Both the position numbers and the translations under genes were made by a program. From positions 1 through 64,000 of IMG/VR virus record IMGVR_UViG_3300010883_026915: a stretch of 64,000 nucleotides of DNA; one strand, 5' to 3'. Below, piece after piece: positions 24,959 to 63,534 of the stretch. Under the pieces are notes generated by a model that had not been told where the DNA came from, made no database searches, and was given only the letters and a program-made list of their open reading frames with translations. The stretch's first letter is position 1. Each line of letters starts with the position of its first letter. Origin of the DNA: a virus.

Positions 24959-24960
24959 GA

Positions 24961-34580: not shown

Positions 34581-36125
34581 ATGTATAGAATACTGACAGC
34601 TAGCAAAGATACATACGTTACTAATAAGATTATTAATAATAGTTTTAGAGCAACAGATGCAAATGTAGGAATGGCATCTACTCTTGATTTATATAAATTA
34701 TATGGAGAGTCTACGTCTGGATCTGTTGAAAATCCAATCGAAATAAGTAGAATATTATTAAAGTTTAATTTAAATCCATTACGTGCACTTACTGGATCAA
34801 TACTTGACTTAGATTCAAGTACTTTTAAAGCAACATTAAATCTATATGATGTATACGGAGGTCAAACAACACCTAGTAATTTTAAATTAATAGTATTTCC
34901 ACTTTCAAAATCTTTTGATGAGGGTATAGGTAGAAATATAGTAGATTTTTCTGACTTAGATTCTTCTAACTTTATAACAGCATCTGTATCAAATAGTTCT
35001 GCTGATGCCTGGCATCTAAGCGGCGCAAACAAGCAAGGTTTTCTAGGATCAAGTAATATTGATATTATATCAAGCGGAACGCTGAGTGGAAGTAGTGAAA
35101 CAGAGAATATTAATATCTGGAAATCGCAAACTTTTAGTACAGGAGATGAGAATCTATCTATAGACGTAACTACAATAGTATCTGGAACACTAGTAGGTTT
35201 AATACCCGATTGTGGCTTTAGGATTTCATTTAGCGGAAGCCAGGAAACAGATAAGAAAACAAGATTTGTAAAAAGATTTGCATCTAGACATACTACAAAC
35301 TATATCAAAAGGCCTTCAATTGTTATTCATTACGATGATTCTGTACAAGATCATCACGAAGTTTTTTACTTTGACATGACGGGAAGCGTATTTTTAAATA
35401 ATAGTGCAAGAGGCACAAGAAGAAATTTCAGATCAGGATCAGCTGCAACTGAAATAACAGGTTCAGACTGCCTATATCTTGAGCTTGTATCAGGATCTAA
35501 TCTAAGCGGAACATTATTCCAGAAAACAATAACTGGATCTCAGCATAAAATTGGAAAAAACTTTATAACAGGTGTATATTCTGCATCATTTGCAATAAGT
35601 GAGTTCGAAAGTGGCACTTTATATCACCATGTTAAAAGTGCAGGATCAGCAAGCTTTACTGCTGTATGGTCATCAATGGATAAAACTGTTCCATTTCTAA
35701 CATCTTCACTAGTTATTTTTAGAACTGATAGATCTGCATTTGATAATGATCAAAAAAGACTTATTGTTACAGTAACAAATGTTCAACCTACATATGGCTT
35801 AAATGATAAAGTTAGATTTAGAGTATTTGCTGAAAATATAGATAGAGATGTTGTATATAAGAAGGTTCCAATGGAAACAAAGAGCCAGATATTTACAAAA
35901 ATGTACTATAGAATTAGGGATGCAATATCTTCAGATATAATAATACCATTTGAAAAATCAAACAATGCAACTCTTTGTTCTACTGATAGTGATGGAATGT
36001 ATTTTGATATATATATGGATTCACTTAATGAGGGTAGACTTTATACTATAGACTTTTTAATAAAAGACATGGGTGAGGATCTTCTCTTTACAGATGTTGC
36101 AGCAAAATTTCGACTAGAGAAATAG
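34581..36125 (+). CDS. Virion structural protein (DNRLRE-like N-terminus)
   Basis: ASKDTY...SRILLKF, DVTTIV, KRFASR...P.IVIHYDD; beta-rich; directly follows gp6. Confidence 0.6.
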   Translation: MYRILTASKDTYVTNKIINNSFRATDANVGMASTLDLYKLYGESTSGSVENPIEISRILLKFNLNPLRALTGSILDLDSSTFKATLNLYDVYGGQTTPSNFKLIVFPLSKSFDEGIGRNIVDFSDLDSSNFITASVSNSSADAWHLSGANKQGFLGSSNIDIISSGTLSGSSETENINIWKSQTFSTGDENLSIDVTTIVSGTLVGLIPDCGFRISFSGSQETDKKTRFVKRFASRHTTNYIKRPSIVIHYDDSVQDHHEVFYFDMTGSVFLNNSARGTRRNFRSGSAATEITGSDCLYLELVSGSNLSGTLFQKTITGSQHKIGKNFITGVYSASFAISEFESGTLYHHVKSAGSASFTAVWSSMDKTVPFLTSSLVIFRTDRSAFDNDQKRLIVTVTNVQPTYGLNDKVRFRVFAENIDRDVVYKKVPMETKSQIFTKMYYRIRDAISSDIIIPFEKSNNATLCSTDSDGMYFDIYMDSLNEGRLYTIDFLIKDMGEDLLFTDVAAKFRLEK

Positions 36126-36126
36126 T

Positions 36127-39100
36127 ATGAAAAAACGAATAGTTTCAAAATCAAAAAGACCTTCTCTATTTAAAAATGAAAAATCAATAAATAAACTGAC
36201 TTCAAAAAAAGAAATAAGTCTTTCTAGTATGATGGATACAAATATACAGTCAGATGAATCATTTAGATATGATTCTTATTCAGAAGCTATAAAAAACACA
36301 CAACAGCTTAACATTGACTATACAAAATTCAAAAATCATACATTTTTCAATTCTGCGCAAGCAAAGACAAATATTGCAATATCTAAAATAATTAATGAGT
36401 ATCCGTTTGATCAAAATAAAAAATCAATAGAGTCATTTTTTGATTCACTTACTGGATTTGAAAATTATGTTTTTAACATATTTCCAAAATATACTGGCTA
36501 TTTACATTTTTCAGGAACAGTCTCTGGTGAACCAGCTAGTAATGGAACAATATTAGAAATATTTGATTCAAGCGGCTATAAGTTCCCACAATTCTCTACA
36601 AAAAATGATGGAAATGCAGAGATAGATTTCGAATATAATCCGATCACAGTAGAGTTTCAAACATATATACCGGATCAGGTAAATGAAAATCAAATAATTA
36701 TTCAAAAACAAAAAGAAGCAGGCTTCGGAGTAAATATTGCACTAAGCAGAAGCCTTGATACTTCAAGATGTAATATTATATGGTCTGTTGTTTCTGGTGG
36801 CATACACACATCTGTATCAAGTAGTATAGAAAAGGGAAAATGGGTTAATGTAGGTTGTATATATGATAGGGGAAATGAAAACAATCTGCACTTATTTTTT
36901 GACGGTGAGCTTCAAGGAACTTCTTCAAATAAAGCAGAGTTTAGTATACTTTCTTTTGACAAGTCTCCGCTTTATATTGGGACCGGATCTATATTCAATA
37001 TTGATTCAAGATTTCAAAAAGGAGGAGAATCTACATTTTCACCTCAGGTATCTCTTTCTGGAAATTTAGATGAAGTTAGAGTGTTCCATGATGTTAGAAC
37101 TGCAGATGAGCTAAAAGAGTTTAGACAAAAGAGTATCTTTCCTGAGCCAAACCTAGTATGCTATTTAAAGTTTAATGAACCATCGGGAAGCTATAAGGGA
37201 AATAAAATTATATTAGACTCTTCTGGAAACTCAAATCATGCTTTAATTCAAAACTTTACTAGTGAGCTAAGATTTACAGGATCACTTAGCTCGCCCTTGC
37301 TATTTGAAAAGAAAAACCTAACCCCGATTTTATTTCCTGATCACTACCTTGTTAAAGATCTAAATACAAAAATGCTTATATCAGCATCTAGGTATGACGA
37401 GATAAATCCAAATCTTATAACAAGATTAATACCAAAGCACTTTTTCGTCGAAGGTCAGGCAAATGAGGGATTTTCAACACAGGCTGGAGAAATTGTAAAA
37501 GCCATAACAGGAAATTCAATGCCAGGATCAGCAAAGCTTGGAAGTGCGCAGCTTATGACATCATTTCTACTAGTTTATGCAAAATTCTTTGATGAATTGA
37601 AGATAGTAATTGATAGCATTAGTAATTTTCTTAATGTAAACTATGAAAACGAAGAGACTATACCAGATCAGCTATTGCCAGCACTTGGGAGGTATTACGG
37701 AATAGATTTGCCTAGCTTGTTTACAAATGCTGATATATATCAATTTATTGATGGAGAAAGACTGGGAGAGAGCTGGGGTGCTAGTCCAAGATCACTTAGG
37801 GAATTACAAAACGCACTCTGGAAAAGATTTTTGATAAATATTCCCTATATAACTAGATCAAAGGGAACAATAAGAAGTATAAAGTCTACATTATCATCAT
37901 TTGGAATAGATCCAGATGATATTGTTAATATAAGAGAGTTTGGAGGACCTACTAAGAAGACACTAGATAATAAACGTATAAGAAAAATCAAGGCAATATC
38001 CTTTCTAGACTTTACTGGATCTTTTGGTCATGAGAATGATACAGTTAACTATCAAGGCTACTCAAGCACATCTCCGATTTTTATTAGCAAATATCTTAGC
38101 TCTTCAAGAGTTGAACCAGGATATCCTGAAATAAAGGGCAACTTTATAAATAAATCTAGTACAAATAGAAATGGTATATCAAATAATAAAAGTGATGGAC
38201 AGCACACATCAGGATCTTTTACATATGAAGCATATTATAGATTTCTAGAGAAGCCCAGGCTGGGTGGAAAAACACATTATGCAACACAGAGCCTAGCTAG
38301 ACTTCATGTTACAGGATCACATGATGGAGTAGGTGGGGGAGCACATATTCTTAACATTCTGGCAACATCTGCTTCTATCCCTACAGAAAACAATAGATTA
38401 ACTCTATTTGTTAGAGATGCCATCGACATCGCCACCCCTGGCCTAAAGATACAGATAAATGATAAAAATTTAGACCTGTTTAATGGTGAGCCCTGGTACA
38501 TATCATTTGGAAAAGTCAGGTCAGATGACATCATAACTTCAGTATCAGAGAGTCTTGTTGGGTCAAAAGTTAGATCTCCGTTTTCAACGCCTAAGATTTC
38601 AACTAACATGACATCATCATGGTTTATTAGGGCAGCAAGGTCTGCAAACGGGCGAGTTACAGAGTCTTACGTAAGTAAATCATTCTTTGCTTACGATGAC
38701 CACAACCTGCTCGAAAATATCGCGCCCAGCGGTGAGACAGGCTATAATCCTAGTGGAACTTTTATAGCGATAGGCTCACAAAGCATGCCTCTTCCGACAA
38801 CAATTTCACAAGAGAGATTTTTAATTAGTGATCGATCTTCTATTGAAGGATTGCCAAATTGGTCAAGTGGTGATCGAGACCTGGCAATGTCAACAAAATT
38901 CTCGGGCCAGGTTGGAAAGATAAGATTCTGGTCTTCTGCACTTGATGAAAAATCATTTAAAGATCATGTTAGAAATCCTGATTCTATAGGTTCACTAGAC
39001 CCTGTAAAGAGTTATGATTTTATAACTCAGGAAACAGGTTCTTTCCAGCGACTTAGAGTTGATCATCAGATGTCACAAGAAGTTCTCACATCTTCTGCAA

Positions 39101-39804
39101 CAGGTGAGCTTATGATAACAAACTTTACACAGACTACAGCAGCTACAGCACGCGGATTTGAGAAAAATAAACAAATTATAAAAAATGAAAATATATTCTA
39201 CTCTATGCTTTCTCCAAAGTTTGATCTCTCACAAACAGATGAGAAAGTTAGAGTTAGAGGTTTCTCAGATTCTAAAAATATAGATAGTGAAGATTATGCA
39301 TATGCATCACCAGTATATGAAGTGCTGAGAAGTGAAAGCCCAGATGATGATACAAGATTTGCTATAGAGTTTTCAGCAATAAAAGCAGTTGAAGATGATA
39401 TAATGTCTTTGTTTTCGTCTCTTGAGTTTTTTGATAATGCACTTGGAAATCCAAATTTATTATTTGATGAATTTTATCCTGATTTAGAGCAAATGAGAAA
39501 GATTTACTTTAGAAGACTATTAGCAAAACCTGAATTTGATTCATACTATAGGATGTTTAAATGGTTCACTAGTTCTCTAGGCAATATACTAGAGCAGCTT
39601 GTCCCAAAGAAGACAAAGTTTCTTGGAATAGATTTTATATATGAGTCACATCCGTTGGAAAGAAATAGATTTAGATACCTATATGATGAGATTTATCTAG
39701 GGCAAGCCGAAAGATCATTTGATAAACCCCCAGATAAGCCTACAGAATATCCTGATAATCCTGCTGCTGGGCAACTCAAGTCTGGCCAAATTAAGAAGTT
39801 TTAA
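36127..39804 (+). CDS. Large baseplate/tail protein with LamG-like domain(s) and a P2 gpI/gp7-like wedge motif
   Basis: LamG-like KWVNVGCIYD...LFFDGEL...SGNLDEVRVF; KGTIRSIKSTLSSFGI...IREFGG; C-terminal ESHPLERNRF. Confidence 0.7.
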   Translation: MKKRIVSKSKRPSLFKNEKSINKLTSKKEISLSSMMDTNIQSDESFRYDSYSEAIKNTQQLNIDYTKFKNHTFFNSAQAKTNIAISKIINEYPFDQNKKSIESFFDSLTGFENYVFNIFPKYTGYLHFSGTVSGEPASNGTILEIFDSSGYKFPQFSTKNDGNAEIDFEYNPITVEFQTYIPDQVNENQIIIQKQKEAGFGVNIALSRSLDTSRCNIIWSVVSGGIHTSVSSSIEKGKWVNVGCIYDRGNENNLHLFFDGELQGTSSNKAEFSILSFDKSPLYIGTGSIFNIDSRFQKGGESTFSPQVSLSGNLDEVRVFHDVRTADELKEFRQKSIFPEPNLVCYLKFNEPSGSYKGNKIILDSSGNSNHALIQNFTSELRFTGSLSSPLLFEKKNLTPILFPDHYLVKDLNTKMLISASRYDEINPNLITRLIPKHFFVEGQANEGFSTQAGEIVKAITGNSMPGSAKLGSAQLMTSFLLVYAKFFDELKIVIDSISNFLNVNYENEETIPDQLLPALGRYYGIDLPSLFTNADIYQFIDGERLGESWGASPRSLRELQNALWKRFLINIPYITRSKGTIRSIKSTLSSFGIDPDDIVNIREFGGPTKKTLDNKRIRKIKAISFLDFTGSFGHENDTVNYQGYSSTSPIFISKYLSSSRVEPGYPEIKGNFINKSSTNRNGISNNKSDGQHTSGSFTYEAYYRFLEKPRLGGKTHYATQSLARLHVTGSHDGVGGGAHILNILATSASIPTENNRLTLFVRDAIDIATPGLKIQINDKNLDLFNGEPWYISFGKVRSDDIITSVSESLVGSKVRSPFSTPKISTNMTSSWFIRAARSANGRVTESYVSKSFFAYDDHNLLENIAPSGETGYNPSGTFIAIGSQSMPLPTTISQERFLISDRSSIEGLPNWSSGDRDLAMSTKFSGQVGKIRFWSSALDEKSFKDHVRNPDSIGSLDPVKSYDFITQETGSFQRLRVDHQMSQEVLTSSATGELMITNFTQTTAATARGFEKNKQIIKNENIFYSMLSPKFDLSQTDEKVRVRGFSDSKNIDSEDYAYASPVYEVLRSESPDDDTRFAIEFSAIKAVEDDIMSLFSSLEFFDNALGNPNLLFDEFYPDLEQMRKIYFRRLLAKPEFDSYYRMFKWFTSSLGNILEQLVPKKTKFLGIDFIYESHPLERNRFRYLYDEIYLGQAERSFDKPPDKPTEYPDNPAAGQLKSGQIKKF

Positions 39805-39819
39805 AAATAAGAGTAAAAT

Positions 39820-40692
39820 ATGCCAATTAAACCGTTTATAGATAGAAAAGAGATAAATCTAAGCACTAATGACTCTCTGCTGGCGTTGGCATCTGCTGCA
39901 TCTGGATCTTTCGCTGCACCATGTATAGATGCATTTAAGCAAGGTGTAAGCCTAAAGACTTCAAAAGATGTATTCTCAAGACTGCTTCCTTTCGTAGGAT
40001 CTAAAGGTCTACCTTTAAATTTTTATGATACTATTGACTTCTCACTTGAAAGAACAACATATGGAAATGTTGAACTATTTAGTGAATCTAGCAATGGATC
40101 AACAGTTGATCCATTTGATGATATATCATCATTAAATAATCCTGTTACTTTTCTTAAAGATGATGGTCTTACAGCTTACCCACAAGTTATGCTTAGTCCA
40201 AATTGGCTTGATCCAGGGCTCATGAACGGAATAATAGAGCCTTTAGATCTTAGGGGAACATTGCCAGGTGCTAGTGTTGACTCTCCCTTTGTAGCAAGAA
40301 CAATAAAGGCAAGCATTATGGATAATCCCTATCCGTATAGGTGCGATAGAGTGTTTGATAAAAAGTCTACATTTGATGTAGACGTTGCATTTATAGATTC
40401 TCAAAATCTAGGTCCATCAAAGGATAATTTTCATATGTTCTCTGAGCCTATAGGTGATTTCGGTAGATCAAAAATATCACCATATGACGAGCTAATTGAC
40501 AGCTATATTGTAAATGATCTAAAGACTATGAGTGATACTAATTTTAACGATACTATTGGACTTGGAATAATATCAAGGGGAGTAGGAACAATAATGAATT
40601 ATAATTCTTCTAAAATTGTTCAAAGAGGTGAGTCTGGATTTAGAAATCTAACAGTAGTTGACTCAATAGCATTTGGAGGCTTAGTTAAGTAA
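39820..40692 (+). CDS. Hypothetical structural-module protein
   Basis: 290-aa ORF, translationally coupled (TAATG) to the next gene. Confidence 0.65.
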   Translation: MPIKPFIDRKEINLSTNDSLLALASAASGSFAAPCIDAFKQGVSLKTSKDVFSRLLPFVGSKGLPLNFYDTIDFSLERTTYGNVELFSESSNGSTVDPFDDISSLNNPVTFLKDDGLTAYPQVMLSPNWLDPGLMNGIIEPLDLRGTLPGASVDSPFVARTIKASIMDNPYPYRCDRVFDKKSTFDVDVAFIDSQNLGPSKDNFHMFSEPIGDFGRSKISPYDELIDSYIVNDLKTMSDTNFNDTIGLGIISRGVGTIMNYNSSKIVQRGESGFRNLTVVDSIAFGGLVK

Positions 40693-43600
40693 TGCCAATA
40701 TCAGGTTCAAAAGGATATAGATCGGGAATATTATCACTGCCCAATAGAGTTACAATAAGGATGACAGATAGTGTCAGTGGAACATATCCGACCACTGCTA
40801 GAACTACAGGTAAAACTCATGGATTAATTGGAAAAAATATATTAAGATTTGATGATACTAAAACTAAGATGTTTTTAGGCTCAGATTCAATGGTATATCC
40901 AATTGTTCAGACAGCAGCAAACATATCACAATCTAATACTTCTATACTTATTGCATCGCCTAACAAGCCACCGACTATTATCACACATGGAACATCTTCT
41001 GACGGCCTTTCAATGGACGGGATGATTTCAAATATAGAAAACGGTCTAGTATTTTTACCTTACGATGAAACAAGAATTGTTAATACAGGAAAATCTGATT
41101 CTTTCTATGCTACTGGCACAAAATCAGAAAATCTACCAGGATTTTCAGGTCCACTTAGGGATAAAATAAGTATAACAATACCAATAAATAATTCAAGCCA
41201 GAAAATAGCTACAAGATATAATGTTTCAGGAATAAATGTTGACTCAAGCGGGCATTTTCCTTCGACATCAGACAAATATTCTGGATTTTTATATTATAAC
41301 CCAAGCTTAAATAGGTGGGAGGATATCGGCCTTGTAGATCATTTGCACAACTCATCTACAAACTACAAGATGTACTATCAGAGTACAAGTACAGATGTAA
41401 GCAAAGTTGATTGCTGGATCGCTGGCACACATGTTACAAGCTCCAATCTTGGAGCTGGCACTCCTTCTTATCCCAAAATGCAGCAATTTGCAATGTCAGA
41501 TCATATGGCAGTATATCTTGACTCTGTCGCTGATATATCTTCTGTAAAGGGCTCTAGTAAGTACTCAATATTGACGTCTTCTTTAGATTATCATCTTATT
41601 GGAACACCAACTATAGCAGCATTAGCTCCGGGTGCATCAATATATCATGCTACATCTAGTCAGACTTTGTCTATTGACAATTATATAAATGATCCATTTG
41701 CACTAGAATCTATGGTTCTAGAGATACCAGTTGTAGTTCAAAGAATGAGAGGCACTGTTGCAAAGCCAACAGAAGAGTCTAGGTTTTATGAAGCATGCAG
41801 AGATATTGACAATTATACATTTTTTATATATAGACAGACTAGACCTACTAATTCTAATATTGACTCAGATGAACATATAGAAACCTCAAGAAGATATTTG
41901 ATTGGAAGCGGGTGTGCTACATTTTCAAATACAAATTCACTTTCAGGAAGAATGCCAGCGATTGTTCGTTCAAAGGGCTGGCCACACAAGCCAGCGTTTT
42001 CTCATGACTTTCTCGTTGCCAGTGGCGCTGCAGCAAATGAAAATGTAACTTCTAGTCCCATATCAGTGTTTTCAGGAACACTAGAAATAAAAATAAAACC
42101 AGCAGTAGCAAATGGGCAATATCTAGGGGGTTCTAGGTTTCCTCTAGGCCCAAGTATAGGTGCCGGTCTTGCTGGAGGCAGTGTTTTTTGTACTGATGGT
42201 ATACGAAGCATAGTAACACAAGATTTTTGGCCAGGTGGAACAACTACATTGTCTGGAAATATAAAGCCAGCATCATCTAGACAATATTCACCTCAGATAA
42301 ATACTAGTATTTTTAAAGGTGCTAGAGACCCACAGATTAGTTTCGCAGGATCATTATTACACAGTGAATATAATAACTTGCTTAGTGAGTACAAAGAGCT
42401 AGTTCTTAAAGATAAGCTAGGATTAGTTGATACTAGGCCGCTTGCAAATGGTATCGGCTTAAGATCAACAGGTTCAGTTGAAAATACAGTTTCAGGAACT
42501 ATCGCACTTGGACAAAAAAGTGGAATACTAGGATATACAGCACAATCAACGCCATCTACAAGAAGCTTTCCTGTCGGTCTTGGATCTCTTCCAAACTCAA
42601 AAGAGTCACCATATCTACTGCTACCTGGTGATGAAATAGTTCTGGGTCTTGATGTGGGTGTATCTATGATTCCAAGCTCTGGAACAAACATGACATGGAC
42701 TTCTGGACTTGGGACAATTGATGTTGGGAAAGATTTGGGATTCTATTCTGCATCTAGCGCAGATAATGAATACTTTGGAACAGTTTCAGGATCATTTATG
42801 AAACTAATAAAGGGTCAAGCTAAACTAACACTATACGGATCTCTAGTCAGATGGGGAAAGGGAATAGAAGGTGAATCAAATCAGAATATCACGTCAGATG
42901 CAATACATGAAGCTGTGGGAAACCATAGGGTAACAGATCAGTATGATATTCCAACAAGAAATGATCTATCTTCAAGCTACGTTGATAGATTTATAGTAGG
43001 TGTTATGAAATCTGGCTCAAGAGATGCATACTACTCAGAGAATAGCGGATATTATGAAAACACTATAAATTTTAATTTTGGATATAATCTAAAAAGATCT
43101 GTTAGAGGATTATTTTCTAAAAATAGAACTGGAATATACAGTAATCTTCAAAATACAATATTTTCTAATTATAGTGTTGGTGCTCCACCTAGATTAAAAT
43201 ATTCATCAGTTTTCCCTTCAAATACAAGCGTTGTACTTGACAGATACCATATATCTAGATACGGAGAGTCAATATTTGATTTTGGAAAAGGCTTTCGATC
43301 GCTCCAGAGATTTGTCGGACTAGACTGCAATAAAGAAAGATTTTATGATACTGTTATGCCTGATATTATGCACCTGGCTTTAGCATCACCATCACTATCT
43401 GTAGATCCAATACCTTCCGGAACATATACAAAAAGGATAACACTTGATAAGCATAGAGCTATATCATACCCATATAGTGGTAACCCGGATAGATATGTAG
43501 AACAAAAGTACTATCTTAGAGTTGATGCTTCAAGTGGAACAATTGGAAGCACAATTCAAGATTTTAAATCTGACTATGACAGAAAGCTTGTCAATGTTTG

Positions 43601-44033
43601 CTTATTTCAACGAGGGTGGAATTTTTCTACATATAACGCAAAAACTAGCAAAGTTGCACACTTTAGACATGCTGTATCAGCTAGTTTTGGACCATTATAT
43701 GGAATAATGAGTCCAATGCCCAAGTATACTTCTTCAAAATTTAGAAGAGATACATATGGGCAATTTAGAGATATGCTTGAACAAAGAAAAGACGGAAAGT
43801 TTTTCCATTCAGAAGAGAAAAATAAATCTGTAAATGACTCACCTATTCAAGTAAGTTTTGTTAACAGTTCAGATGGCTTTACTAATGTCCAGCCATCTTC
43901 AACAGACTCTGTTAATTTTAGCAAAGAGTATTCATCTTCTTTTGCATATGTAGAAGGAGATTCATTAAATCCAAAAGGCCAGAATAATGTATCAGTATCA
44001 CTTGGTGCTGGTCCATTTTATAACATGAAATAG
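40692..44033 (+). CDS. Large Ser/Thr/Gly-rich putative virion protein
   Basis: 1113-aa ORF in the tail module; many SGS/SGT tripeptides; C-terminal FRRDTYGQFRDMLEQR. Confidence 0.65.
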   Translation: MPISGSKGYRSGILSLPNRVTIRMTDSVSGTYPTTARTTGKTHGLIGKNILRFDDTKTKMFLGSDSMVYPIVQTAANISQSNTSILIASPNKPPTIITHGTSSDGLSMDGMISNIENGLVFLPYDETRIVNTGKSDSFYATGTKSENLPGFSGPLRDKISITIPINNSSQKIATRYNVSGINVDSSGHFPSTSDKYSGFLYYNPSLNRWEDIGLVDHLHNSSTNYKMYYQSTSTDVSKVDCWIAGTHVTSSNLGAGTPSYPKMQQFAMSDHMAVYLDSVADISSVKGSSKYSILTSSLDYHLIGTPTIAALAPGASIYHATSSQTLSIDNYINDPFALESMVLEIPVVVQRMRGTVAKPTEESRFYEACRDIDNYTFFIYRQTRPTNSNIDSDEHIETSRRYLIGSGCATFSNTNSLSGRMPAIVRSKGWPHKPAFSHDFLVASGAAANENVTSSPISVFSGTLEIKIKPAVANGQYLGGSRFPLGPSIGAGLAGGSVFCTDGIRSIVTQDFWPGGTTTLSGNIKPASSRQYSPQINTSIFKGARDPQISFAGSLLHSEYNNLLSEYKELVLKDKLGLVDTRPLANGIGLRSTGSVENTVSGTIALGQKSGILGYTAQSTPSTRSFPVGLGSLPNSKESPYLLLPGDEIVLGLDVGVSMIPSSGTNMTWTSGLGTIDVGKDLGFYSASSADNEYFGTVSGSFMKLIKGQAKLTLYGSLVRWGKGIEGESNQNITSDAIHEAVGNHRVTDQYDIPTRNDLSSSYVDRFIVGVMKSGSRDAYYSENSGYYENTINFNFGYNLKRSVRGLFSKNRTGIYSNLQNTIFSNYSVGAPPRLKYSSVFPSNTSVVLDRYHISRYGESIFDFGKGFRSLQRFVGLDCNKERFYDTVMPDIMHLALASPSLSVDPIPSGTYTKRITLDKHRAISYPYSGNPDRYVEQKYYLRVDASSGTIGSTIQDFKSDYDRKLVNVCLFQRGWNFSTYNAKTSKVAHFRHAVSASFGPLYGIMSPMPKYTSSKFRRDTYGQFRDMLEQRKDGKFFHSEEKNKSVNDSPIQVSFVNSSDGFTNVQPSSTDSVNFSKEYSSSFAYVEGDSLNPKGQNNVSVSLGAGPFYNMK

Positions 44034-44041
44034 AATATAGA

Positions 44042-46483: not shown

Positions 46484-46491
46484 GTTTATAA

Positions 46492-47475
46492 ATGTCTTTA
46501 TCTGATGCTAGTAAAATAAACATTTCAATAAAGAAGCTTAGCGGCAAAGCTCAAACATCAAATGATAAAGACCTTGCAAACGAAGGCCTGACATCAGGTA
46601 TAACTATAACTTCAGAGACAGTATTTGGAGATGCTATATCTAAAGATCCATCAAATGTCGCACTATACAATATAACTAGCACATCTGTTGAGCTTATAAG
46701 ATTTCAAGCATCGTTCATAGCTGGAACTGATACATCATCCGGAAGACATGGATTTGAGTTAAAGTTACCATCAGATTATGAGGAAAGCTCTTCAAATACA
46801 AAAGCAGGAACATATCCGTTTACAAATAGTCAGTCAGTAAATATTACATCCGGTGCATTACAGCTCATTCCAACATCATTTGCCTCATCATATGAGGCAA
46901 AGCCATTTTATGGTGGCAGCGGCATAAAAAACTCTGGGACTCAAATTCCTATTTTAGACTCTAGAGACTGGTCATTAGATTTTTTTAATGGAGTATTCTT
47001 TCAACAAGACCCACCAGGAACAGGTGATCATTCAAATAATCCTGACTACGTAGAGGCATTTTTGTATATAGGCTCTTTCGTAAGTGATAAAGTTCAAAAT
47101 GTTGCAGCTGCAGAGTACGTTGTTACAGCACTTACAGGAACACTTACTAATGAAAAGCTTCTTACTGCAGGAACCGGAATATCAATAGCAACATCAAGTA
47201 ATTCAGTTACTATTGCATCAGATGCATCACATTCAATAAGATCAAAATCTCACACAAGATTGACATCTTCGATATCAGCTGGTAGTGATTGTAACCTTTT
47301 AATAGACTTCTCTTCAGTATCATATAATATAAATAGAGTGGATGTATTAATAAATGGTCAACTGCTAGTAAGCGGAACAAATGAAGATTATATTCTAAAT
47401 ACTTCAAAAACAGGAAGTATTCAATTCGCTTTCGACCTATTTAAAGATGATACTGTAATAGCAACATTGGCATAG
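46492..47475 (+). CDS. Putative virion protein with a C-terminal INGQLL.SG...DY...FAFDL domain
   Basis: AEYVV...LTNEKLLTAGTGISI fibre-type segment; C-terminal domain shared with 47817..49655. Confidence 0.65.
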   Translation: MSLSDASKINISIKKLSGKAQTSNDKDLANEGLTSGITITSETVFGDAISKDPSNVALYNITSTSVELIRFQASFIAGTDTSSGRHGFELKLPSDYEESSSNTKAGTYPFTNSQSVNITSGALQLIPTSFASSYEAKPFYGGSGIKNSGTQIPILDSRDWSLDFFNGVFFQQDPPGTGDHSNNPDYVEAFLYIGSFVSDKVQNVAAAEYVVTALTGTLTNEKLLTAGTGISIATSSNSVTIASDASHSIRSKSHTRLTSSISAGSDCNLLIDFSSVSYNINRVDVLINGQLLVSGTNEDYILNTSKTGSIQFAFDLFKDDTVIATLA

Positions 47476-47484
47476 GAGCAAAAG

Positions 47485-50235: not shown

Positions 50236-50294
50236 TTTTAGATTTAATAATTTGCTTACCTATAGTCTCTAATATTTAAAAATGAGGTTTTACA

Positions 50295-50972: not shown

Positions 50973-51045
50973 TATAAGGATAATAAGACAAATGTCAGCG
51001 TATAAATTCATCGTATGTATATTTACTGTTAAGGAAAACTAAAAA

Positions 51046-52290: not shown

Positions 52291-52291
52291 A

Positions 52292-55126: not shown

Positions 55127-55127
55127 T

Positions 55128-58100: not shown

Positions 58101-59510
58101 CCCTGGGATGTAGATGGAGAATATATTCTTGATAGAGAAGAGTTTCAAGCAGACGATTCCAGAGAGTTCTCTCCACCGTCTGTAAGAGGATATGACTATG
58201 ATATACGTAAAATTTATTCTGCAATCAGTGATGATTACTGTGCAATGGTGATGAAGGAAAGAACATCACATAGTCTTATGCTATTTACTGCAAAGTTATT
58301 TGATAGGCTAAGTGCAGCAGCAGGAAATCTTTATGATACAATTGTTGGAACATCAATCGAGCAGGATACATATCAATCTGCTCTAGAAAATATATTTGCA
58401 GATGAAAGGTTTCAAAGTTCAACAATGCTATCAATATCAAGAGACCAGCTTTGTACAAATTGGGCATTATACGATTCTCTTAGCGTTCCAAATAGAGAGT
58501 ATCCGTATGTCCCAGCAACAAAAATAGCAACAACTAATCAGTCAATAAATCTTGCCGGATTTGTGAAAGATGAACGGCTTCTAAATACATCTGATATGAG
58601 AAGAAGATATATTATGCCAATAGGTATTACAGCTGGTTTAATTGAAGCACTACGATATAGAATGATGGATGAGACTGGAGATCTTAGCTATAGATTTTCA
58701 AACTTGATAGAAGTATCTGTTTTTAAAAGAGATCTTCTTGATGAATCAAAGCTCTATTATCCAAAAAGGTTTCCATTTGATACTTCAAAATATATAATTA
58801 CAGGCAGACCAAATCCAACATCAGTGGGAGATGATCTAGACGGTGATTCACAAACAGCAAGTCCGCAAGACTATGCTCGCGTTAGAGAGAGTATGGTCTA
58901 TAGGACATATACTCCTGATGGCAATATAGAGACTTTGGTAGGAACTAGTTACCCAACACTATGGAAAACTGCGGATGAATCTATCAGTAGCGGCGATGTT
59001 GACAAAAACCACGCCATGGATCATCAGCTTAAAACACTTATGAAGTTAACAACGGGTTTTGATCTTTCTGAGGATGTATTTCCCTTTCTTGAGAATTTTG
59101 TATTTTTTGATGAGCCTGATGATAATAGACAGGATATATACGAGTCATTAGTAGACACAGCTCAGGTTTCATTTACAGATAATGATCTTGAAACAGCACT
59201 AAATTATGATAGACTTATAGGGGAAATAAAACGGTCAATAATTGTAAGCCCTAAGAAGTATAGAAATAGAATAGTATATCCAAAAGTATTTGCAAGAACA
59301 TTTTGTATTTTTATAGATCCTAATGAGTTTGAAGTTATGCCTGATAAGGAAGATGAAGACTCAGATGCAACTTTTACTGTCCTAGATGGCACGATATCTG
59401 ATGAATATACACAATATTATGTTACAATTAAGCTTCTTCCTGACTTTACTTCCCCAGGAGCGTACACAGAGTATTCGTATTCTGTATTCACCGCCACTGA
59501 GGCAGAATAA
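55128..59510 (+). CDS. Very large acidic hypothetical protein
   Basis: 1460-aa ORF with no recognised motif; coupled (TAATG) to the next gene. Confidence 0.7.
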   Translation: MPRKTTEIPIEVHSLPVVEEPGAITEIKPSSYSLGSSIVVSGPTLPWSSPEDIDTLPPGDPVFTSGGGGSSYDMGSLSIDFNYDSFYLNPSLETMLNRRGFSTQRAEILGMFNYKAPLESGDPAYGPDANYLITPYGELFDYQCQLKQLRYNDAMYFLTTLLGFDLSPQTLGYILTPGSSPGLFANQEDQEMYLQEYQNEMSLAKDVLDYLRIIYNAVTEFINAQQIIYDTHRIFYPSEDLSAGYSSGELGDSYLNVSNNLPSVSFDYNGSHLTGKLPNIFISAEYQGMRDFFEDFGLGYSWARHASCTTQVAQIARIALSSVAVENFKVPGSSWTPIETMSDRFSENWYSNKIAGIGWYRDSTNSAYEKNAFNVRRAKSDGTKINFWNMCSDGEVRPLDSGDSNRMSELLDTFSRGEASSPEDSQRSNLLYASTIDYIQGIYISSLRDAGQTLGQFPVASLHQNSIVKSLVNKHFGTEASNFTGTHGLLDNLPRNPNCLIRSIVGKNRDPAINDNRDAIENYTSSNYNLAKTVTLSRNGRSYYCDEVTTVEVDEVQERLVALMDSLRMGGETLGDFARLTCIEGTASINVIDGDSSTTLDIEDISQPAYESGTDSGFIQPSSIMHFIALAIQRITSAHLDHNEADLGADTSSNVAVTTLSGFTPMLITTLAMESKKIKASLLGLLIARWNWYYKVGGEAGDRDEDLKNLQDVARTLMNQVVHAVYNDFYDHIAWTVSDDPDMAGEERVSAFDSGRVRHPMCKWGYATSADDKKITQTNFKYKLNSGWSVYPRGSIGVVVTLESSESTDWSKAAFKDYIDFSKFGPQIEYALFGNQEDGRCTVLESKSWGDDIDHLFFDAPLIAVRDFETMVCDAAGVSRDTEYTSRNHSSQSRIIAAFNSCCNIWHNGLRMGFASSTTSGSSHVIDTEVLTAGGPAPETGLSGHFKKVWLAYNERALFSMYNACQNFTKHFPPCYGASYSDFQVTDIKNDPWDVDGEYILDREEFQADDSREFSPPSVRGYDYDIRKIYSAISDDYCAMVMKERTSHSLMLFTAKLFDRLSAAAGNLYDTIVGTSIEQDTYQSALENIFADERFQSSTMLSISRDQLCTNWALYDSLSVPNREYPYVPATKIATTNQSINLAGFVKDERLLNTSDMRRRYIMPIGITAGLIEALRYRMMDETGDLSYRFSNLIEVSVFKRDLLDESKLYYPKRFPFDTSKYIITGRPNPTSVGDDLDGDSQTASPQDYARVRESMVYRTYTPDGNIETLVGTSYPTLWKTADESISSGDVDKNHAMDHQLKTLMKLTTGFDLSEDVFPFLENFVFFDEPDDNRQDIYESLVDTAQVSFTDNDLETALNYDRLIGEIKRSIIVSPKKYRNRIVYPKVFARTFCIFIDPNEFEVMPDKEDEDSDATFTVLDGTISDEYTQYYVTIKLLPDFTSPGAYTEYSYSVFTATEAE

Positions 59511-61495
59511 TGACAACAGCAGAAACATTTTATGAGCTATTGCAGGATGAGCTAGGCCTCACAGAGACAAATCAATACCCATCAGCACCTGTGACAACAG
59601 TTGATCTAAGAGAGCCCATAAGTGTATCATCAGATTTTTTTTATAATTACTATACACGAGATGAAAGAACAGCAGATCCTGATACAAGTGGTATAATTGA
59701 TATATCACCTGAATCTGAATCTCTTGAGATAGCAAAGAAGCGTCAAAAAGCGCCGAGATCAGCTATAATAAATATCAAAGTTCCAGCAAAGTTGCCCCCG
59801 GATAGTTCATATGTAGATGTTCAGGCAAGAAAGTTTATTATTGAAAATTATATAACTAGATTTCCAAAAAAGATAGTCTTTGAAGGTGCTGTTGCAAATA
59901 CAAGATTTTCTTCTATAATACTTCAAGATAATCAAATAGACGATACATTTTATAAGACTCTTAGTCAATCTGTTGCATTTAAAGAATCATACTCAAAAAC
60001 ATCAACAGCTAGTGAACTAGGAAATGTTCTTGATAGATACTTTACATCACCTATGGCATATGCTAGTGCGACGCCATCTACAATAAGAAAAGTTATGTCA
60101 AACTATCAGCCAGCAGGTGTTGCATATGCACCGACAGATGCTAGGCGAGAAGTTATAGCTGAAGCTCTTAGGGACGTAAGGTTTGTAGAATATAATTTTA
60201 CTATAAACAATGCAATTGCTCATAATGTAATACTAGGGGGTCTTGAAGATAGAGGAAATATTTATCAAGATGAACTAATAGGTGTTGAAGATGATGCAAA
60301 AGATGTTCAAAGATTTTTTCTTTCAACGATAAATCCGGCAATAATAGATGGATCAGAATTTGAGCTTGAACTAGCTGCTATGACAGTAGAGACGAAAGGA
60401 GATATTGAATCTGCTGGATTATCTGTTGACGAAAGCTCAGTTCCTATTGGGTTGTACATCGAGAAGCACGAAATTCAGACTATGGGAGACGGATCATTTA
60501 AAACTACAAGATGTGACCCAATAGTTATTAAAGACTATGGAAACTTTAATATTTTCGACAGTCGGATAAGATACGGAGCTACTTATATATACAGGGTTAG
60601 AATTATATACTGCACTGTTTATGAAGCTACTGCAATAGATCCAGAATCAATTACTGAATCAGAGATAGTATTTGCAACATCTATGGTTGCATCTCAAGGT
60701 ATAAAAACACAAGTTATGTGTGTAGAAAATATACCGCCTGATCCTCCTAGAAATTTAAGATTTAATTATGACTTTTTTGATAATAGTCTTGACATATTTT
60801 GGGAAGAACCGACAAATCCTCAGAGAGACGTTGTAAGATATCAAATATTTAAAAGAGGATCACTTGATGTTCCATTTACACTTGTAAGAGAGCTAGATTT
60901 TGACAAATCTACAAGTAAGGTTGTACCTCTAGAGAAAGCTCCAAAGAGTAAACTAACCAAAGTGTCAGGACCAAGAAAATTTCTTAAAGATAGAACGTTC
61001 AAGAGAGAAACACCAGAAATTTATGCACTTGCCTGTGTAGATGCAAGAGGTTTAACATCATTGTACTCAGAGCAAATATTAGTTTCTTTTGATAGATATA
61101 AAAATAAAATAGAGCGTGAAAGAATTTCACCTCCAAAAGCACCAAAGCCATACCCTAATCTATATTTGAATCGTGATTTGTTCGTAGATACAATGAGATC
61201 TTCAGATGCATCAAGAATGAGAATATATTTTGATCCAGAATATTTCGATGTTCAGCAAAGTACGATGTATGAAGCAACTATAACTACATATGACGAAAAG
61301 ACAGGCGCAGCCATACATTCTACAAAAGAATACACAGGGACATCATCTCTAGAGCTTATAAAAGCTAAATATAAGTTGCAGCTTATAAATGTAGATTTGC
61401 AAGATGCAAATATTTTTGATATAAATATTAACAACCTTACATTTGATATAACTGAGATTCCAGTAACTAGTGCAACAATTAAAACTGTATTTTAA
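59510..61495 (+). CDS. Fibronectin-type-III-containing virion protein
   Basis: D.RIRYGATYIYRVR and PPDPPRNL.F...W..P......RYQIFKR...IYALACVDARG..S.YS. Confidence 0.7.
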   Translation: MTTAETFYELLQDELGLTETNQYPSAPVTTVDLREPISVSSDFFYNYYTRDERTADPDTSGIIDISPESESLEIAKKRQKAPRSAIINIKVPAKLPPDSSYVDVQARKFIIENYITRFPKKIVFEGAVANTRFSSIILQDNQIDDTFYKTLSQSVAFKESYSKTSTASELGNVLDRYFTSPMAYASATPSTIRKVMSNYQPAGVAYAPTDARREVIAEALRDVRFVEYNFTINNAIAHNVILGGLEDRGNIYQDELIGVEDDAKDVQRFFLSTINPAIIDGSEFELELAAMTVETKGDIESAGLSVDESSVPIGLYIEKHEIQTMGDGSFKTTRCDPIVIKDYGNFNIFDSRIRYGATYIYRVRIIYCTVYEATAIDPESITESEIVFATSMVASQGIKTQVMCVENIPPDPPRNLRFNYDFFDNSLDIFWEEPTNPQRDVVRYQIFKRGSLDVPFTLVRELDFDKSTSKVVPLEKAPKSKLTKVSGPRKFLKDRTFKRETPEIYALACVDARGLTSLYSEQILVSFDRYKNKIERERISPPKAPKPYPNLYLNRDLFVDTMRSSDASRMRIYFDPEYFDVQQSTMYEATITTYDEKTGAAIHSTKEYTGTSSLELIKAKYKLQLINVDLQDANIFDININNLTFDITEIPVTSATIKTVF

Positions 61496-61567
61496 AATAT
61501 AACTAATCATATTTTATATTTACAGAAGCTTATAAGCGTAATATATAATCAATAAGGAGTTTTTAAA

Positions 61568-62284
61568 TTGGGATTTTTAGATCATTCAACAAACAATGTT
61601 ATTATCGATGCAGTATTAACAGATCAGGGTAGAAAGCTCTTAGCTGGTGGACTTGGAAATTTTACAATTTCAAAGTTTGCATTTGCAGACGACGAAGTCG
61701 ATTATACTATAATAAAAAAATTCGGAAGAACAGTAGGCAGGGAGAAGATTGAGAAAAATACTCCTGTCCTTGAGGCTCCTACAAGTGGATATCTTGGCTT
61801 AAAGTTTAAAAATACTAGCTTTAACAATAATTCAATGATTAGGTTGCCAACACTAACCATATCAAAAGGTATAGATGCATCTGGTGCTGCTTCTGTAACA
61901 AGAAGTAGAACTTCATCACAAATTGATACATCAATTTCAATTACTGCAGAGCAGAAGTTAATCACAGGCGGAGTTGCAGATCATGATGTAACAAACTATT
62001 CATATCAGATAACTTTAGATCATTTATTTTTAAGAGTACAAGGGTATACGCCTGACTACGTCGATGCTTATAATAATGCAACGTATACTATAAGAGCAGC
62101 AAACTCTCTTTCTAATCAAAGATGCTCAAGTGTAACATTTTCTCTGGTTCCAAATCTACTCAATGATATAACATTTCGCCAGTACTCATATACAACCCAG
62201 GGTACATCAATTGTAACAAGACCGGTTTCTGTTACTGGGTTAAATGATGGACAATCTGTATCATTTAACATAAACATTTACTAA
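61568..62284 (+). CDS. Conserved phage tail protein (tail-collar/DUF3751-like N-terminal half)
   Basis: MGFLD...IIDAVLTDQGRKLLA...F.ISKFAFADDEVDY; AAGGAG RBS with TTG start. Confidence 0.65.
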   Translation: MGFLDHSTNNVIIDAVLTDQGRKLLAGGLGNFTISKFAFADDEVDYTIIKKFGRTVGREKIEKNTPVLEAPTSGYLGLKFKNTSFNNNSMIRLPTLTISKGIDASGAASVTRSRTSSQIDTSISITAEQKLITGGVADHDVTNYSYQITLDHLFLRVQGYTPDYVDAYNNATYTIRAANSLSNQRCSSVTFSLVPNLLNDITFRQYSYTTQGTSIVTRPVSVTGLNDGQSVSFNINIY

Positions 62285-62298
62285 AATAGGAATTTAAG

Positions 62299-63534
62299 GT
62301 GGCAGTATTTAAACAAATAGGACCAGGTGATATATCTACAGCCCAGTCTTTTCTAACACAATTAGTAGATGTAATTGCGTCCGATGTTTCTGGATCTACA
62401 ACCTGCAGGAAGTATCAAGTATTTGTGACTGGTGCAAACGGTCGAGGCGCAGGAGTTACCTCATCTTTGTTTCAAACAGTTTGTGATCAAGATTATACGC
62501 TACAAACTTCTAATGAGATATTAGATATGACAGTAGGGCTTAGAGACGATTCATTGCTGGTCAAATCAGCTTCAACGGGAAAAGATACTGCTGGCAAAAA
62601 GCTTTTCCCATCTGAATCTTTGATGATGAGGGAAAAAATATCAATCTATAGTCAGTATTCTCTTCTATTACTCGGCGCGTCAGGATCTGCTTTTAAATCA
62701 CCTCAGAATTCAACTCTAGAGTCTGACAAGATTGATAATGCAATGTTTATAAGCTTTAAGCGACTATTTTCTAGAGATTCTATTAAGGAAAATAGTTTTG
62801 CACTTGAAGTTGCATCAAGCGGATGTAAATCAGAAGGCTCTTCAGGAGCAGACTCCCGACCAAACATTAATAGAACATCAAACTCAGGTACTATGTTTAA
62901 TGTATATACTGATGCAGGGTTATCGACATCAACATTGGTCAAATTTGGAGGTACATGCAGTGATATTGTCAATGCTACAAATACTGCTGAGAAAGTTGGA
63001 AATATATTCTACCAGCACGGAATAGTAGTTCTCGATATTGAAAAAGTTTTTTCAGGTAGTCAGAAGATATCAGGAACAATTGATGCTGTGACTTCTGAAG
63101 GTAATGGTAAAGTCGTCTTAGGTGCTTTGAACACGCCTGGCTCAAATAAGCAGGCAAAGCTTGTTCCAGATCTAATGGTTTCAGGATCTATAGATGATAT
63201 CTTAGATTTTTACAGGACTACTAGATTTAAGTCAGGCTCTCAGACTTGTTATACCTTTATGAATCGTACAAATATTAATTCAACACTTATATGGTGTAGG
63301 GCAACAGCAGATGAATTTAACTATTCTTCAAATCCTACTTATGTAGATCCATCAACGAATAGAATAAATGTCATAGAAGTAGGGCAAGAAAACTTTCAAA
63401 GTGCTTTTTCATATATAACAACCGTCGGCTTGTATGATCCAAATGATAATTTAGTTGCAATTGCAAAAATGTCTAGGCCGATTGCGAAAAACAATGAGAA
63501 GGATATTACCATTAGGGTAAGGCTCGACTTCTAG
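62299..63534 (+). CDS. Conserved phage tail/baseplate protein (DUF3751-like C-terminal motif)
   Basis: VGNIFYQHGIVV, EFNYSSNPTY, YITTVGLYD..DNLVAIAKMSRPI.K.....IRVRLDF. Confidence 0.7.
   Translation: MAVFKQIGPGDISTAQSFLTQLVDVIASDVSGSTTCRKYQVFVTGANGRGAGVTSSLFQTVCDQDYTLQTSNEILDMTVGLRDDSLLVKSASTGKDTAGKKLFPSESLMMREKISIYSQYSLLLLGASGSAFKSPQNSTLESDKIDNAMFISFKRLFSRDSIKENSFALEVASSGCKSEGSSGADSRPNINRTSNSGTMFNVYTDAGLSTSTLVKFGGTCSDIVNATNTAEKVGNIFYQHGIVVLDIEKVFSGSQKISGTIDAVTSEGNGKVVLGALNTPGSNKQAKLVPDLMVSGSIDDILDFYRTTRFKSGSQTCYTFMNRTNINSTLIWCRATADEFNYSSNPTYVDPSTNRINVIEVGQENFQSAFSYITTVGLYDPNDNLVAIAKMSRPIAKNNEKDITIRVRLDF

What the first reader, a model, noticed from the sequence alone, without database searches (positions are those of the whole stretch)
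34581..63534. Strong [S/T]-[G/A]-[S/T] tripeptide enrichment in a subset of virion proteins: candidate glycosylation sequon
Hand counts: about 17 occurrences (SGS, TGS, SGT, SAS, TAS) in the 514-aa ORF 34581, all in the first ~360 aa, against a rough composition-based expectation near 3. There are 8 in the 411-aa ORF 62299 and roughly a dozen each in ORFs 36127 and 40692. They are dispersed rather than tandem, use varied codons and often follow a hydrophobic residue (LSGS, ITGS, VSGT, FSGS). They are nearly absent from the gp6-like protein and from the island enzymes. A dispersed short motif across unrelated folds suggests selection for a modification site. Inference: it is the acceptor sequon for the adjacent glycosylation machinery.
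Basis: partly seen in the sequence, partly recalled or inferred. Interest (0 to 1): 0.8.

Follow-up and report, generated by a model that had tools for sequence, protein, structure and literature searches.

The report
Ser/Thr-Gly-Ser/Thr tag on phage baseplate proteins
Several unrelated outer tail proteins of this uncultured marine T4-like phage carry the tripeptide Ser/Thr-Gly-Ser/Thr four to six times more often than chance, at conserved positions; it may be where the phage's own enzymes attach sugars, but no sugar has been seen.

Summary
[ST][GA][ST] occurs 17 times in ORF 34581 against 2.7 expected (z about 9). It is also in excess in ORFs 36127, 40692, 62299 and 63549. Pooled over the five, [ST]G[ST] is 45 observed against 11 expected (z 10).

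- The excess is a protein-level effect, not a DNA word.
- It is absent from the gp6-like protein, the island enzymes and all T4 virion proteins.
- All of it sits in conserved alignment columns.
- Substitutions at those sites keep the hydroxyl group 2-3 times more often than at other Ser/Thr.
- The enriched families are not homologous to each other.
- The sites show no preferred secondary-structure context.

A nuclease-GT4-GT4 gene triad accompanies the baseplate module in every relative seen. This includes the cultured Flavobacterium phage immuto and Microcystis phage Mel-JY01, whose outer baseplate proteins are also enriched. Because the triad is always present, its co-occurrence with the motif cannot discriminate between explanations.

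The sequon reading is my leading explanation (about 0.4). It is untested, and a purely structural role (about 0.35) remains open.

Earlier AI notes of this scan describe the same motif on other DNA. Glycoproteomics on immuto or Mel-JY01 virions would settle the question.

The parts
34581..36125 (+). 514-aa all-beta protein directly after the gp6-like gene. It has 17 [ST][GA][ST] sites in residues 6-358 and none in the C-terminal 150 residues.
   Evidence: Counts. The AF2 model has pLDDT 78: an N-terminal CBM/jelly-roll-like domain followed by Ig/FN3-like sandwiches. More than 1800 marine homologues exist; tblastn found none in cultured phages, though profile HMMs later picked up remote homologues in immuto and Mel-JY01. 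Sites are conserved.
36127..39804 (+). 1225-aa baseplate or fibre protein with a ConA-like/Laminin_G_3 domain; 12 sites.
   Evidence: Pfam PF13385, E 3.7e-14. Eleven of the 12 sites are kept in 59-100% of 39 homologues, against a mean column identity of 0.41. Homologues have a median of 19 sites against 5.2 expected.
40692..44033 (+). 1113-aa virion protein; 13 sites. The excess is modest in this genome.
   Evidence: z 2.6. Homologues have a median of 15 against 6.6 (z 3.7). Sites 29 and 141 are kept in 100% although mean identity is 0.24.
62299..63534 (+). 411-aa alpha/beta virion protein; 8 sites.
   Evidence: z 3.7. Six of the 8 sites are kept in at least 55% of 120 homologues. The AF2 model has pLDDT 76.5 and places all sites in loops or at the ends of secondary-structure elements. 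No solved fold matches.
63549..63998 (+). Start of an 853-aa protein that continues to 66110 on the contig. It has 7 sites and shares a C-terminal domain with ORF 62299.
32724..34577 (+). gp6-like baseplate wedge protein; serves as the internal negative control with 0 sites.
   Evidence: phrog_219, and Baseplate_J below Pfam's cut-off. It has 0 sites against 2.5 expected. Eighty homologues have a median of 1 against 2.4.
25644..26495 (+). PD-(D/E)XK (Cas4-like) nuclease, the first gene of the conserved triad.
   Evidence: PF12705, E 6e-18. Synteny.
26563..27804 (+). GT4-A, a retaining GT-B glycosyltransferase with a conserved EX7E motif.
   Evidence: PF00534, E 9e-12. EGFGLSTLE is 100% conserved. 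Orthologues occur in immuto, Mel-JY01, RM378 and LR756508.
27801..28982 (+). GT4-B, the second glycosyltransferase; it also keeps EX7E.
   Evidence: PF00534, E 3e-9. EGFGLPLLE is 100% conserved. Orthologues occur in immuto and Mel-JY01.
1154..25584 (+). Variable sugar-nucleotide and transferase island. It holds a GT2, NeuB, two CMP-transferases, a Maf/MptE-like protein, a GT29, a DHQS-like protein, a GHMP kinase, SDR epimerases, UDP-sugar dehydrogenase and a sulfotransferase.
   Evidence: Pfam and NCBIfam hits. Only genes 22770 and 24065 recur next to the triad in subsets of relatives.

Best explanation
phi-[ST]-G-[ST]-phi (phi = hydrophobic residue; at least one Ser) is a conserved sequence tag. 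It sits at about 10-20 fixed positions in each of several unrelated peripheral baseplate or fibre proteins of this marine T4-like lineage.

The most likely reading is that a trans-acting phage enzyme recognises it. The best candidate is the conserved pair of soluble, catalytically intact GT4 glycosyltransferases, which would O-glycosylate a Ser/Thr of the tag in the cytoplasm before or during baseplate assembly. The variable sugar island would then supply or extend the glycan.

Shown: the excess, its specificity, its conservation and its bias towards keeping the hydroxyl group; the lack of homology between the enriched families; and the constant presence of the GT4 pair.

Inferred: that the tag is modified at all, that the modification is a sugar, and which enzyme adds it.
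For: - **Size and specificity.** The pooled excess is 45 against 11 (z 10.4). Control patterns are flat: [ST]N/D/P[ST] at expectation, TGT at expectation, [DN]G[ST] at 0.14 of expectation. Local Ser/Gly-rich composition therefore does not explain it.
- **Protein level.** The DNA word is almost only codon-aligned.
- **Controls.** There is no excess in gp6, the GT4s or other enzymes, nor in 21 T4 virion proteins.
- **Independent families.** The enriched families are not homologous (HHalign probability below 1.2%; BLASTP).
- **Conservation.** All the excess lies in conserved columns. Chance sites in the non-enriched ORF 30417 are kept in only 0-3% of homologues.
- **Hydroxyl preference.** The share of substitutions that keep the hydroxyl is 0.40-0.73 at most motif positions in four of the five alignments, against 0.15-0.24 at other Ser/Thr. 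It is weaker in the distant ORF 34581 set and at position 1 of ORF 62299.
- **Central residue.** In the ORF 34581 family the central Gly is less conserved than other Gly and swaps with Ala or Ser. The sites sit in strands, helices and loops in the same proportions as all residues. Neither fits a single turn geometry.
- **Deep relatives.** Immuto and Mel-JY01 keep the excess, largely at other positions.
- **Enzymes.** The nuclease-GT4-GT4 triad is present in all of the roughly 60 loci with enough flank, and in immuto and Mel-JY01. Both GT4s keep EX7E.
- **Not DNA.** Immuto DNA shows no glycosylated nucleoside (10.1101/2023.04.13.536721). That argues against DNA as the target.
- **Precedent.** Maf-type O-glycosylation targets Ser/Thr near hydrophobic residues (PMC11339370).
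Against: - No glycan or mass shift has been observed in any member.
- The GT4 pair never varies, so co-occurrence is phylogenetically confounded. In effect the contrast is one clade against T4.
- Fixed, conserved positions with hydrophobic flanks and a small central residue are also what structural residues look like. Outside the conserved columns there is no excess, so there is no sign of selection for glycan density.
- In the ORF 36127 family the motif Gly is strictly conserved (0.91), as a structural Gly would be.
- In ORF 34581 the sites do not prefer loops.
- According to PMC12619734, known phage virion glycosylation sits on the C-terminal ends of capsid and tail-tube proteins. Maf enzymes have no sequon.
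- The very Ser/Thr/Gly-rich ORF 44042 carries no excess.
- Streptomyces phage Blueeyedbeauty has a distantly related GT pair and no clear excess.
- LR756508 lacks GT4-B, yet its ORF 36127 homologue is still enriched (z 3.3).
Confidence: 0.4

Rival explanations
1. The motif is purely structural. Small hydroxyl-Gly-hydroxyl tripeptides between hydrophobic residues act as tight packing or linker elements (strand ends, beta-bulges, helix C-caps) in the beta-rich outer baseplate proteins of this lineage. They are unmodified, and the GT4 pair serves another target such as the host envelope or a polysaccharide.
For: - The excess is confined to conserved columns.
- The flanks are hydrophobic.
- The central residue is small.
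- The motif Gly is highly conserved in the ORF 36127 family.
- All 8 sites of ORF 62299 lie in loops or at element ends.
- Motif density varies while the GT4 pair stays constant.
Against: - It does not explain why at least five non-homologous families share the motif while gp6, gp25 and all T4 baseplate proteins lack it.
- The classic turn formers N-G and D-G are depleted rather than interchangeable with it.
- In ORF 34581 the secondary-structure contexts are heterogeneous and mirror those of all residues.
- In ORF 34581 the motif Gly is less conserved than other Gly.
- In immuto and Mel-JY01 the motif seems rebuilt at other positions (the alignment there is weak).
Confidence: 0.35
2. The tag is read by a different factor. 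Candidates are a kinase or other modifying enzyme, an assembly chaperone for peripheral baseplate proteins, or a hydroxyl-rich surface used to bind host polysaccharide.
For: The same evidence for a trans-read unit applies. Two hydroxyl groups at positions i and i+2 face the same side of a strand (inference).
Against: No kinase or dedicated chaperone gene was recognised among the conserved neighbours. The only conserved enzymes nearby are the nuclease and the two GT4s.
Confidence: 0.1
3. The motif is a chemical-stability dialect. Long-lived extracellular proteins replace deamidation-prone Asn-Gly and isomerisation-prone Asp-Gly turns with Ser-Gly.
For: [DN]G[ST] is 1 against 7.0 expected, and Asp/Asn before Gly is at 0.75 of expectation in the enriched proteins.
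Against: - This should apply to all virion proteins, but gp6 and the other virion proteins show normal Asp/Asn-Gly usage.
- It does not explain the joint requirement for Ser/Thr on both sides of the Gly.
- It does not explain the hydrophobic flanks.
Confidence: 0.07

Closest known systems
Mycobacteriophage virion O-glycosylation by phage-encoded glycosyltransferases (Freeman et al. 2023, as summarised in PMC12619734)
   Same: Both are lytic phages that carry their own soluble glycosyltransferases close to virion genes, with virion proteins as the presumed acceptors.
   Different: There the glycans are demonstrated and sit at the C-termini of capsid and tail-tube subunits. Here nothing has been measured. 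The candidate sites are dispersed and internal, lie at fixed positions, and are on outer baseplate or fibre proteins.
Maf-type nonulosonic-acid O-glycosylation of flagellins (PMC11339370)
   Same: A cytoplasmic transferase acts on Ser/Thr next to hydrophobic residues. The window encodes NeuB, CMP-transferases and an MptE/Maf-like protein.
   Different: Maf enzymes have no defined sequon and recognise flagellin. The Maf-like gene lies in the variable island and is not part of the conserved triad. The motif excess follows the lineage, not that gene.
GtfA/GtfB O-GlcNAc transferase pair of serine-rich repeat adhesins (from my own knowledge)
   Same: Two adjacent GT4-fold genes, with Ser-small-Ser acceptor sequences.
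   Different: GtfB is a non-catalytic partner and the acceptors are long low-complexity Ser repeats. Here both proteins keep EX7E and the sites are isolated tripeptides inside folded domains.
Cytoplasmic heptosylation of autotransporter adhesins (AIDA-I/TibA by Aah/TibC; from my own knowledge)
   Same: Many dispersed Ser sites in a beta-rich adhesin, modified in the cytoplasm by a soluble transferase that reads a short strand-loop-strand context.
   Different: The enzyme family and the sugar differ. The acceptor there is a regular 19-residue repeat rather than unrelated folds.

Membership tests
Phage virion glycosylation system (mycobacteriophage type) | Phage-encoded glycosyltransferases | tested here: met
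   PF00534 lies above its cut-off in ORFs 26563 and 27801. GT2, GT29 and MptE-like hits occur in the island. EX7E is conserved.
Phage virion glycosylation system (mycobacteriophage type) | Glycan shown on virion proteins | not testable with these tools
   This needs glycostaining or mass spectrometry of virions. Cultured relatives exist: immuto and Mel-JY01.
Phage virion glycosylation system (mycobacteriophage type) | Acceptors at the C-terminal ends of capsid and tail-tube subunits | tested here: not met
   The motif sites are internal and lie on post-gp6 baseplate or fibre proteins. The C-terminal 150 residues of ORF 34581 have none. The capsid gene is cut off at the end of the contig.
GtfA/GtfB-type two-protein O-glycosyltransferase | One catalytic subunit and one non-catalytic GT-B subunit | tested here: not met
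   Both families keep EGFGLxxLE at 100%.
GtfA/GtfB-type two-protein O-glycosyltransferase | Acceptor is a long serine-rich repeat region | tested here: not met
   The sites are dispersed, 4-320 residues apart, and not tandem.
Maf-type NulO protein glycosylation | MptE/Maf-like transferase together with NulO synthase and CMP-activating enzyme | tested here: met
   PF01973 (E 1e-9), NeuB (E 1e-70) and CTP_transf_3 twice; TIGR03569.
Maf-type NulO protein glycosylation | The transferase travels with the acceptor proteins across relatives | tested here: inconclusive
   The 10-kb flanks of relatives reach only the triad and genes 22770/24065. Immuto carries a different island. I did not search relatives for Maf-like genes.
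Structural Gly turn or C-cap motif | Central Gly strictly conserved (positive phi angle) | tested here: inconclusive
   Gly retention at motif against non-motif positions is 0.36-0.72 against 0.74-0.84 in the ORF 34581 family. In the ORF 36127 family it is 0.91 against 0.58.
Structural Gly turn or C-cap motif | Interchangeable with other turn formers (N-G, D-G) | tested here: not met
   [DN]G[ST] is 1 against 7.0 expected, and [DN]G[DN] is 2 against 4.7.
Structural Gly turn or C-cap motif | One consistent secondary-structure context | tested here: not met
   In ORF 34581 the sites fall in loops (8), element edges (5), strand interiors (3) and a helix interior (1). This matches the distribution of all residues.

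The most novel reading that the evidence does not exclude
phi-[ST]-G-[ST]-phi is a true O-glycosylation sequon read by a conserved, soluble pair of GT4 enzymes. On this reading a large clade of aquatic T4-like phages, including the culturable immuto and Mel-JY01, sugar-coats its outer baseplate and fibres at defined internal sites. It would be the first defined sequon for phage virion glycosylation, and a short sequon for a cytoplasmic GT-B protein glycosyltransferase.
Probability: 0.35. Interest if true: 0.8.

Novelty: new variant of a known kind. Interest (0 to 1): 0.6.

Why it matters
If the tag is a glycosylation site, a very abundant group of marine phages decorates its host-recognition apparatus with phage-made sugars at genetically encoded positions. 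That would bear on host range, on evasion of defence or grazing, and on particle stability. It would also give glyco-engineers a short acceptor tag for soluble GT-B enzymes.

If the tag is structural, it is still a marked lineage-specific sequence signature of outer baseplate proteins and can be used to recognise them in metagenomes. Two cultured phages make the question directly testable.

Tried and rejected
- **DNA-level motif** (GGATC/GGAAC, Dam-like): rejected, because the word is almost only codon-aligned.
- **A generic property of virion or fibre proteins:** rejected by T4 and by the internal controls.
- **A shared hidden domain:** rejected by BLASTP and HHalign.
- **Known sequons:** Bacteroidota D[ST][AILVMT] shows no excess beyond z 2.0. 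N-x-[ST] reaches only z 2.0-2.2 in ORFs 39820, 40692 and 44042 and is flat in ORFs 34581, 36127 and 62299.
- **A GtfA/GtfB-like active/inactive pair:** rejected, because both proteins keep EX7E.
- **DNA glycosylation by the GT4 pair:** made unlikely by the published nucleoside analysis of immuto.
- **Natural contrasts:** I looked for low-motif ORF 34581 homologues that lack the GT4 pair. Every locus with enough flank has the pair. A scan with P0269 found nothing.
- **No cultured or solved homologues:** DNA and protein searches with ORF 34581 found nothing in cultured phages. PDB sequence searches with ORF 36127 and GT4-B found nothing. Foldseek found no fold for ORF 62299.
- **Surface exposure:** not computed, because model coordinates are not returned.
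Full report
**Context**

The window is the first 64 kb of an 80-kb IMG/VR viral contig, which CheckV estimates at 16% complete. All genes lie on the + strand. GC content is about 33%.

The phage is T4-like. It has a gp21-type prohead protease (PF03420), a gp25-like gene at 32216 and a gp6-like gene at 32724.

Upstream lies a real sugar island. It holds a GT2, NeuB, two CMP-transferases, an MptE/Maf-like protein, a GT29, a DHQS-like enzyme, a GHMP kinase, SDR epimerases, a UDP-sugar dehydrogenase, a sulfotransferase and two GT4 enzymes.

The lineage may be the 'moraphages', aquatic jumbo T4-like phages with four core glycosyltransferase orthogroups (PMC12619734). I did not test that membership.

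**The observation**

Shuffle tests on every ORF confirm the hand counts:

| ORF | Observed | Expected | z |
|---|---|---|---|
| 34581 | 17 | 2.7 | 8.9 |
| 36127 | 12 | 4.1 | 4.0 |
| 40692 | 13 | 6.7 | 2.6 |
| 62299 | 8 | 2.6 | 3.7 |
| 63549 | 7 | 2.5 | 3.1 |
| 32724 (gp6-like) | 0 | 2.5 | - |
| 44042 (very Ser/Thr/Gly-rich) | 6 | 9.8 | - |

The island enzymes are at expectation.

Pooled over the five enriched proteins:
- [ST]G[ST] is 45 against 11.0 (z 10.4).
- SGS, SGT and TGS are each 4-5.4 times expectation.
- TGT is not enriched.
- [ST]A[ST] is only 1.6 times expectation.
- [ST]N[ST], [ST]D[ST], [ST]P[ST] and SSS are at expectation.
- [DN]G[ST] is depleted sevenfold.

These controls rule out local Ser/Gly-rich composition as the cause.

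Positions -1 and +3 are hydrophobic in 55-60% of sites, against 32% in the background. The matching DNA word is almost only codon-aligned.

None of 21 T4 virion proteins exceeds |z| 1.6.

**Conservation**

ORF 34581 has more than 1800 homologues in marine metagenomes. tblastn found none in cultured phages. Profile HMMs later picked up remote homologues in immuto and Mel-JY01 (under 'Cultured relatives').
- At 56-87% identity, most sites are kept in 70-98% of sequences.
- At 30-50% identity, the excess persists: a median of 9 against 2.3, with 79% of homologues at z above 3. Sites 133, 201, 285, 293 and 318 are the best kept.

In the ORF 36127 family, 11 of 12 sites are kept in 59-100% of homologues, against a mean column identity of 0.41. 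In the ORF 40692 family, two sites are kept in 100% at a mean identity of 0.24. Chance sites in the non-enriched ORF 30417 are kept in 0-3%. In ORF 62299, six of 8 sites are kept in at least 55%.

The whole excess lies in 9-22 conserved columns per family. Outside them the counts are at or below the expectation from composition. Selection therefore acts on particular sites, not on overall motif density.

At most motif positions in four of the five alignments, 0.40-0.73 of substitutions keep the hydroxyl group. At other Ser/Thr the share is 0.15-0.24. The effect is weaker in the distant ORF 34581 set and at position 1 of ORF 62299.

The central Gly behaves differently in two families. In the ORF 34581 family it is less conserved than other Gly and swaps with Ala or Ser. 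In the ORF 36127 family it is strictly kept.

**Structure**

The AF2 model of ORF 34581 has pLDDT 78. It is all-beta, with a CBM/jelly-roll-like N-terminal domain followed by Ig/FN3-like sandwiches. Its 17 sites fall in loops (8), element edges (5), strand interiors (3) and a helix (1). These are the same proportions as for all residues.

The model of ORF 62299 has pLDDT 76.5. It places all 8 sites in loops or at element ends.

I could not compute solvent exposure.

The enriched families are not homologous to each other.

**The enzymes**

The following gene order is kept in every IMG/VR locus with enough flank, about 60 of 150:

PD-(D/E)XK nuclease, GT4-A, GT4-B, small ORF, late sigma factor, ORF 30062, ORF 30417, gp25, gp6, ORF 34581, ORF 36127.

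In those loci the ORF 34581 homologues range from z 1.2 to 9.3.

Both GT4s keep the EX7E motif at 100%. They are therefore not a GtfA/GtfB-like active/inactive pair.

**Cultured relatives**
- *Flavobacterium phage immuto.* It carries the orthologous triad (HMM E about 1e-82) about 30 kb from its baseplate genes, followed by a different sugar island. Its post-gp6 proteins have z 2.6-4.7, and its gp6 has z -0.7.
- *Microcystis phage Mel-JY01.* It also has the pair. Its post-gp6 proteins reach z 3-7.7.
- *Site positions.* In both phages the ORF 34581 homologues carry the motif largely at other positions. The alignment at this distance is weak.
- *DNA.* Published nucleoside analysis of immuto DNA shows canonical dA, dC and dT, and dG replaced by formyl-preQ1 (10.1101/2023.04.13.536721). 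This argues against DNA as the GT4 target.
- *T4.* It has neither the pair nor the excess.
- *LR756508.* It has only GT4-A. Its ORF 34581 homologue has no motif, although only 0.5 is expected. Its ORF 36127 homologue still has z 3.3.
- *Streptomyces phage Blueeyedbeauty.* It has a distantly related GT pair and no clear excess.

**Reading**

A specific tripeptide unit that is conserved, prefers the hydroxyl group, occurs in unrelated proteins of one virion module and has no single structural context points to a factor that reads the sequence. The only conserved enzymes at hand are the two GT4s. O-glycosylation is therefore my leading explanation (0.4).

It rests on inference. No sugar has been seen, the co-occurrence has no contrast, and fixed conserved sites with hydrophobic flanks also fit a structural role (0.35). 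Smaller shares go to another reader or modification (0.1) and to avoidance of labile Asn-Gly and Asp-Gly (0.07).

Known sequons show little or no enrichment. Maf enzymes have no sequon but do prefer Ser/Thr near hydrophobic residues (PMC11339370).

**Earlier notes**

Earlier AI notes of this scan report the same [ST]-[GAS]-S excess in related aquatic T4-like phages and in one SPbeta-like clade. They agree with this report but are not independent evidence.

**Limits**

Noticed in passing
window 25644-29308; MW353176 47964-52344; PP395634 about 84-86 kb: The triad PD-(D/E)XK nuclease, GT4, GT4 and a small ORF is a core block of a wide 'far-T4' clade. It is always attached to a sugar island whose content differs between phages. 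In immuto the island holds a GT2, WecE aminotransferases, a methyltransferase and a mannosyltransferase.
   Followed up: partly
ORFs 34581, 36127, 40692, 62299, 63549: Asp/Asn-Gly-Ser/Thr is depleted sevenfold (1 against 7.0) in exactly the proteins where Ser/Thr-Gly-Ser/Thr is enriched. The other virion proteins use Asp/Asn-Gly normally.
   Followed up: partly
motif Gly codons in the five enriched ORFs: Gly inside the motif uses the codon GGA in 31 of 45 cases, against 113 of 253 elsewhere in the same genes.
   Followed up: no
window 63259-63534 and contig 65850-66110: ORFs 62299 and 63549 share a C-terminal domain of about 90 residues. The same domain occurs in Rhodothermus phage RM378 p128, Mel-JY01 and immuto gp164. 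It is probably a common attachment or assembly module.
   Followed up: partly
window 22770-25584: A UDP-sugar 6-dehydrogenase, a cytidylyl/adenylyltransferase-like protein, an SDR epimerase/dehydratase and a sulfotransferase lie directly upstream of the triad. Genes 22770 and 24065 recur there in subsets of relatives. This hints at an acidic, possibly sulfated, sugar donor.
   Followed up: partly
MW353176 97614-100775 (L157 32615-35776): The immuto 'tail spike' gp169 has 56 [ST][GA][ST] against 20.3 expected (z 8.6). I did not check whether this is a low-complexity repeat.
   Followed up: no
LR756508 about 104-108 kb and about 305 kb: A 484-kb uncultured phage keeps the sigma factor, gp6 and homologues of ORFs 34581 and 36127. 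It has only a GT4-A orthologue, located elsewhere in the genome. Its ORF 34581 homologue has no motif.
   Followed up: partly
whole contig (G000): CheckV rates the 80-kb contig as 16% complete, which implies a genome of several hundred kb. Relatives sit on contigs of up to 285 kb.
   Followed up: no
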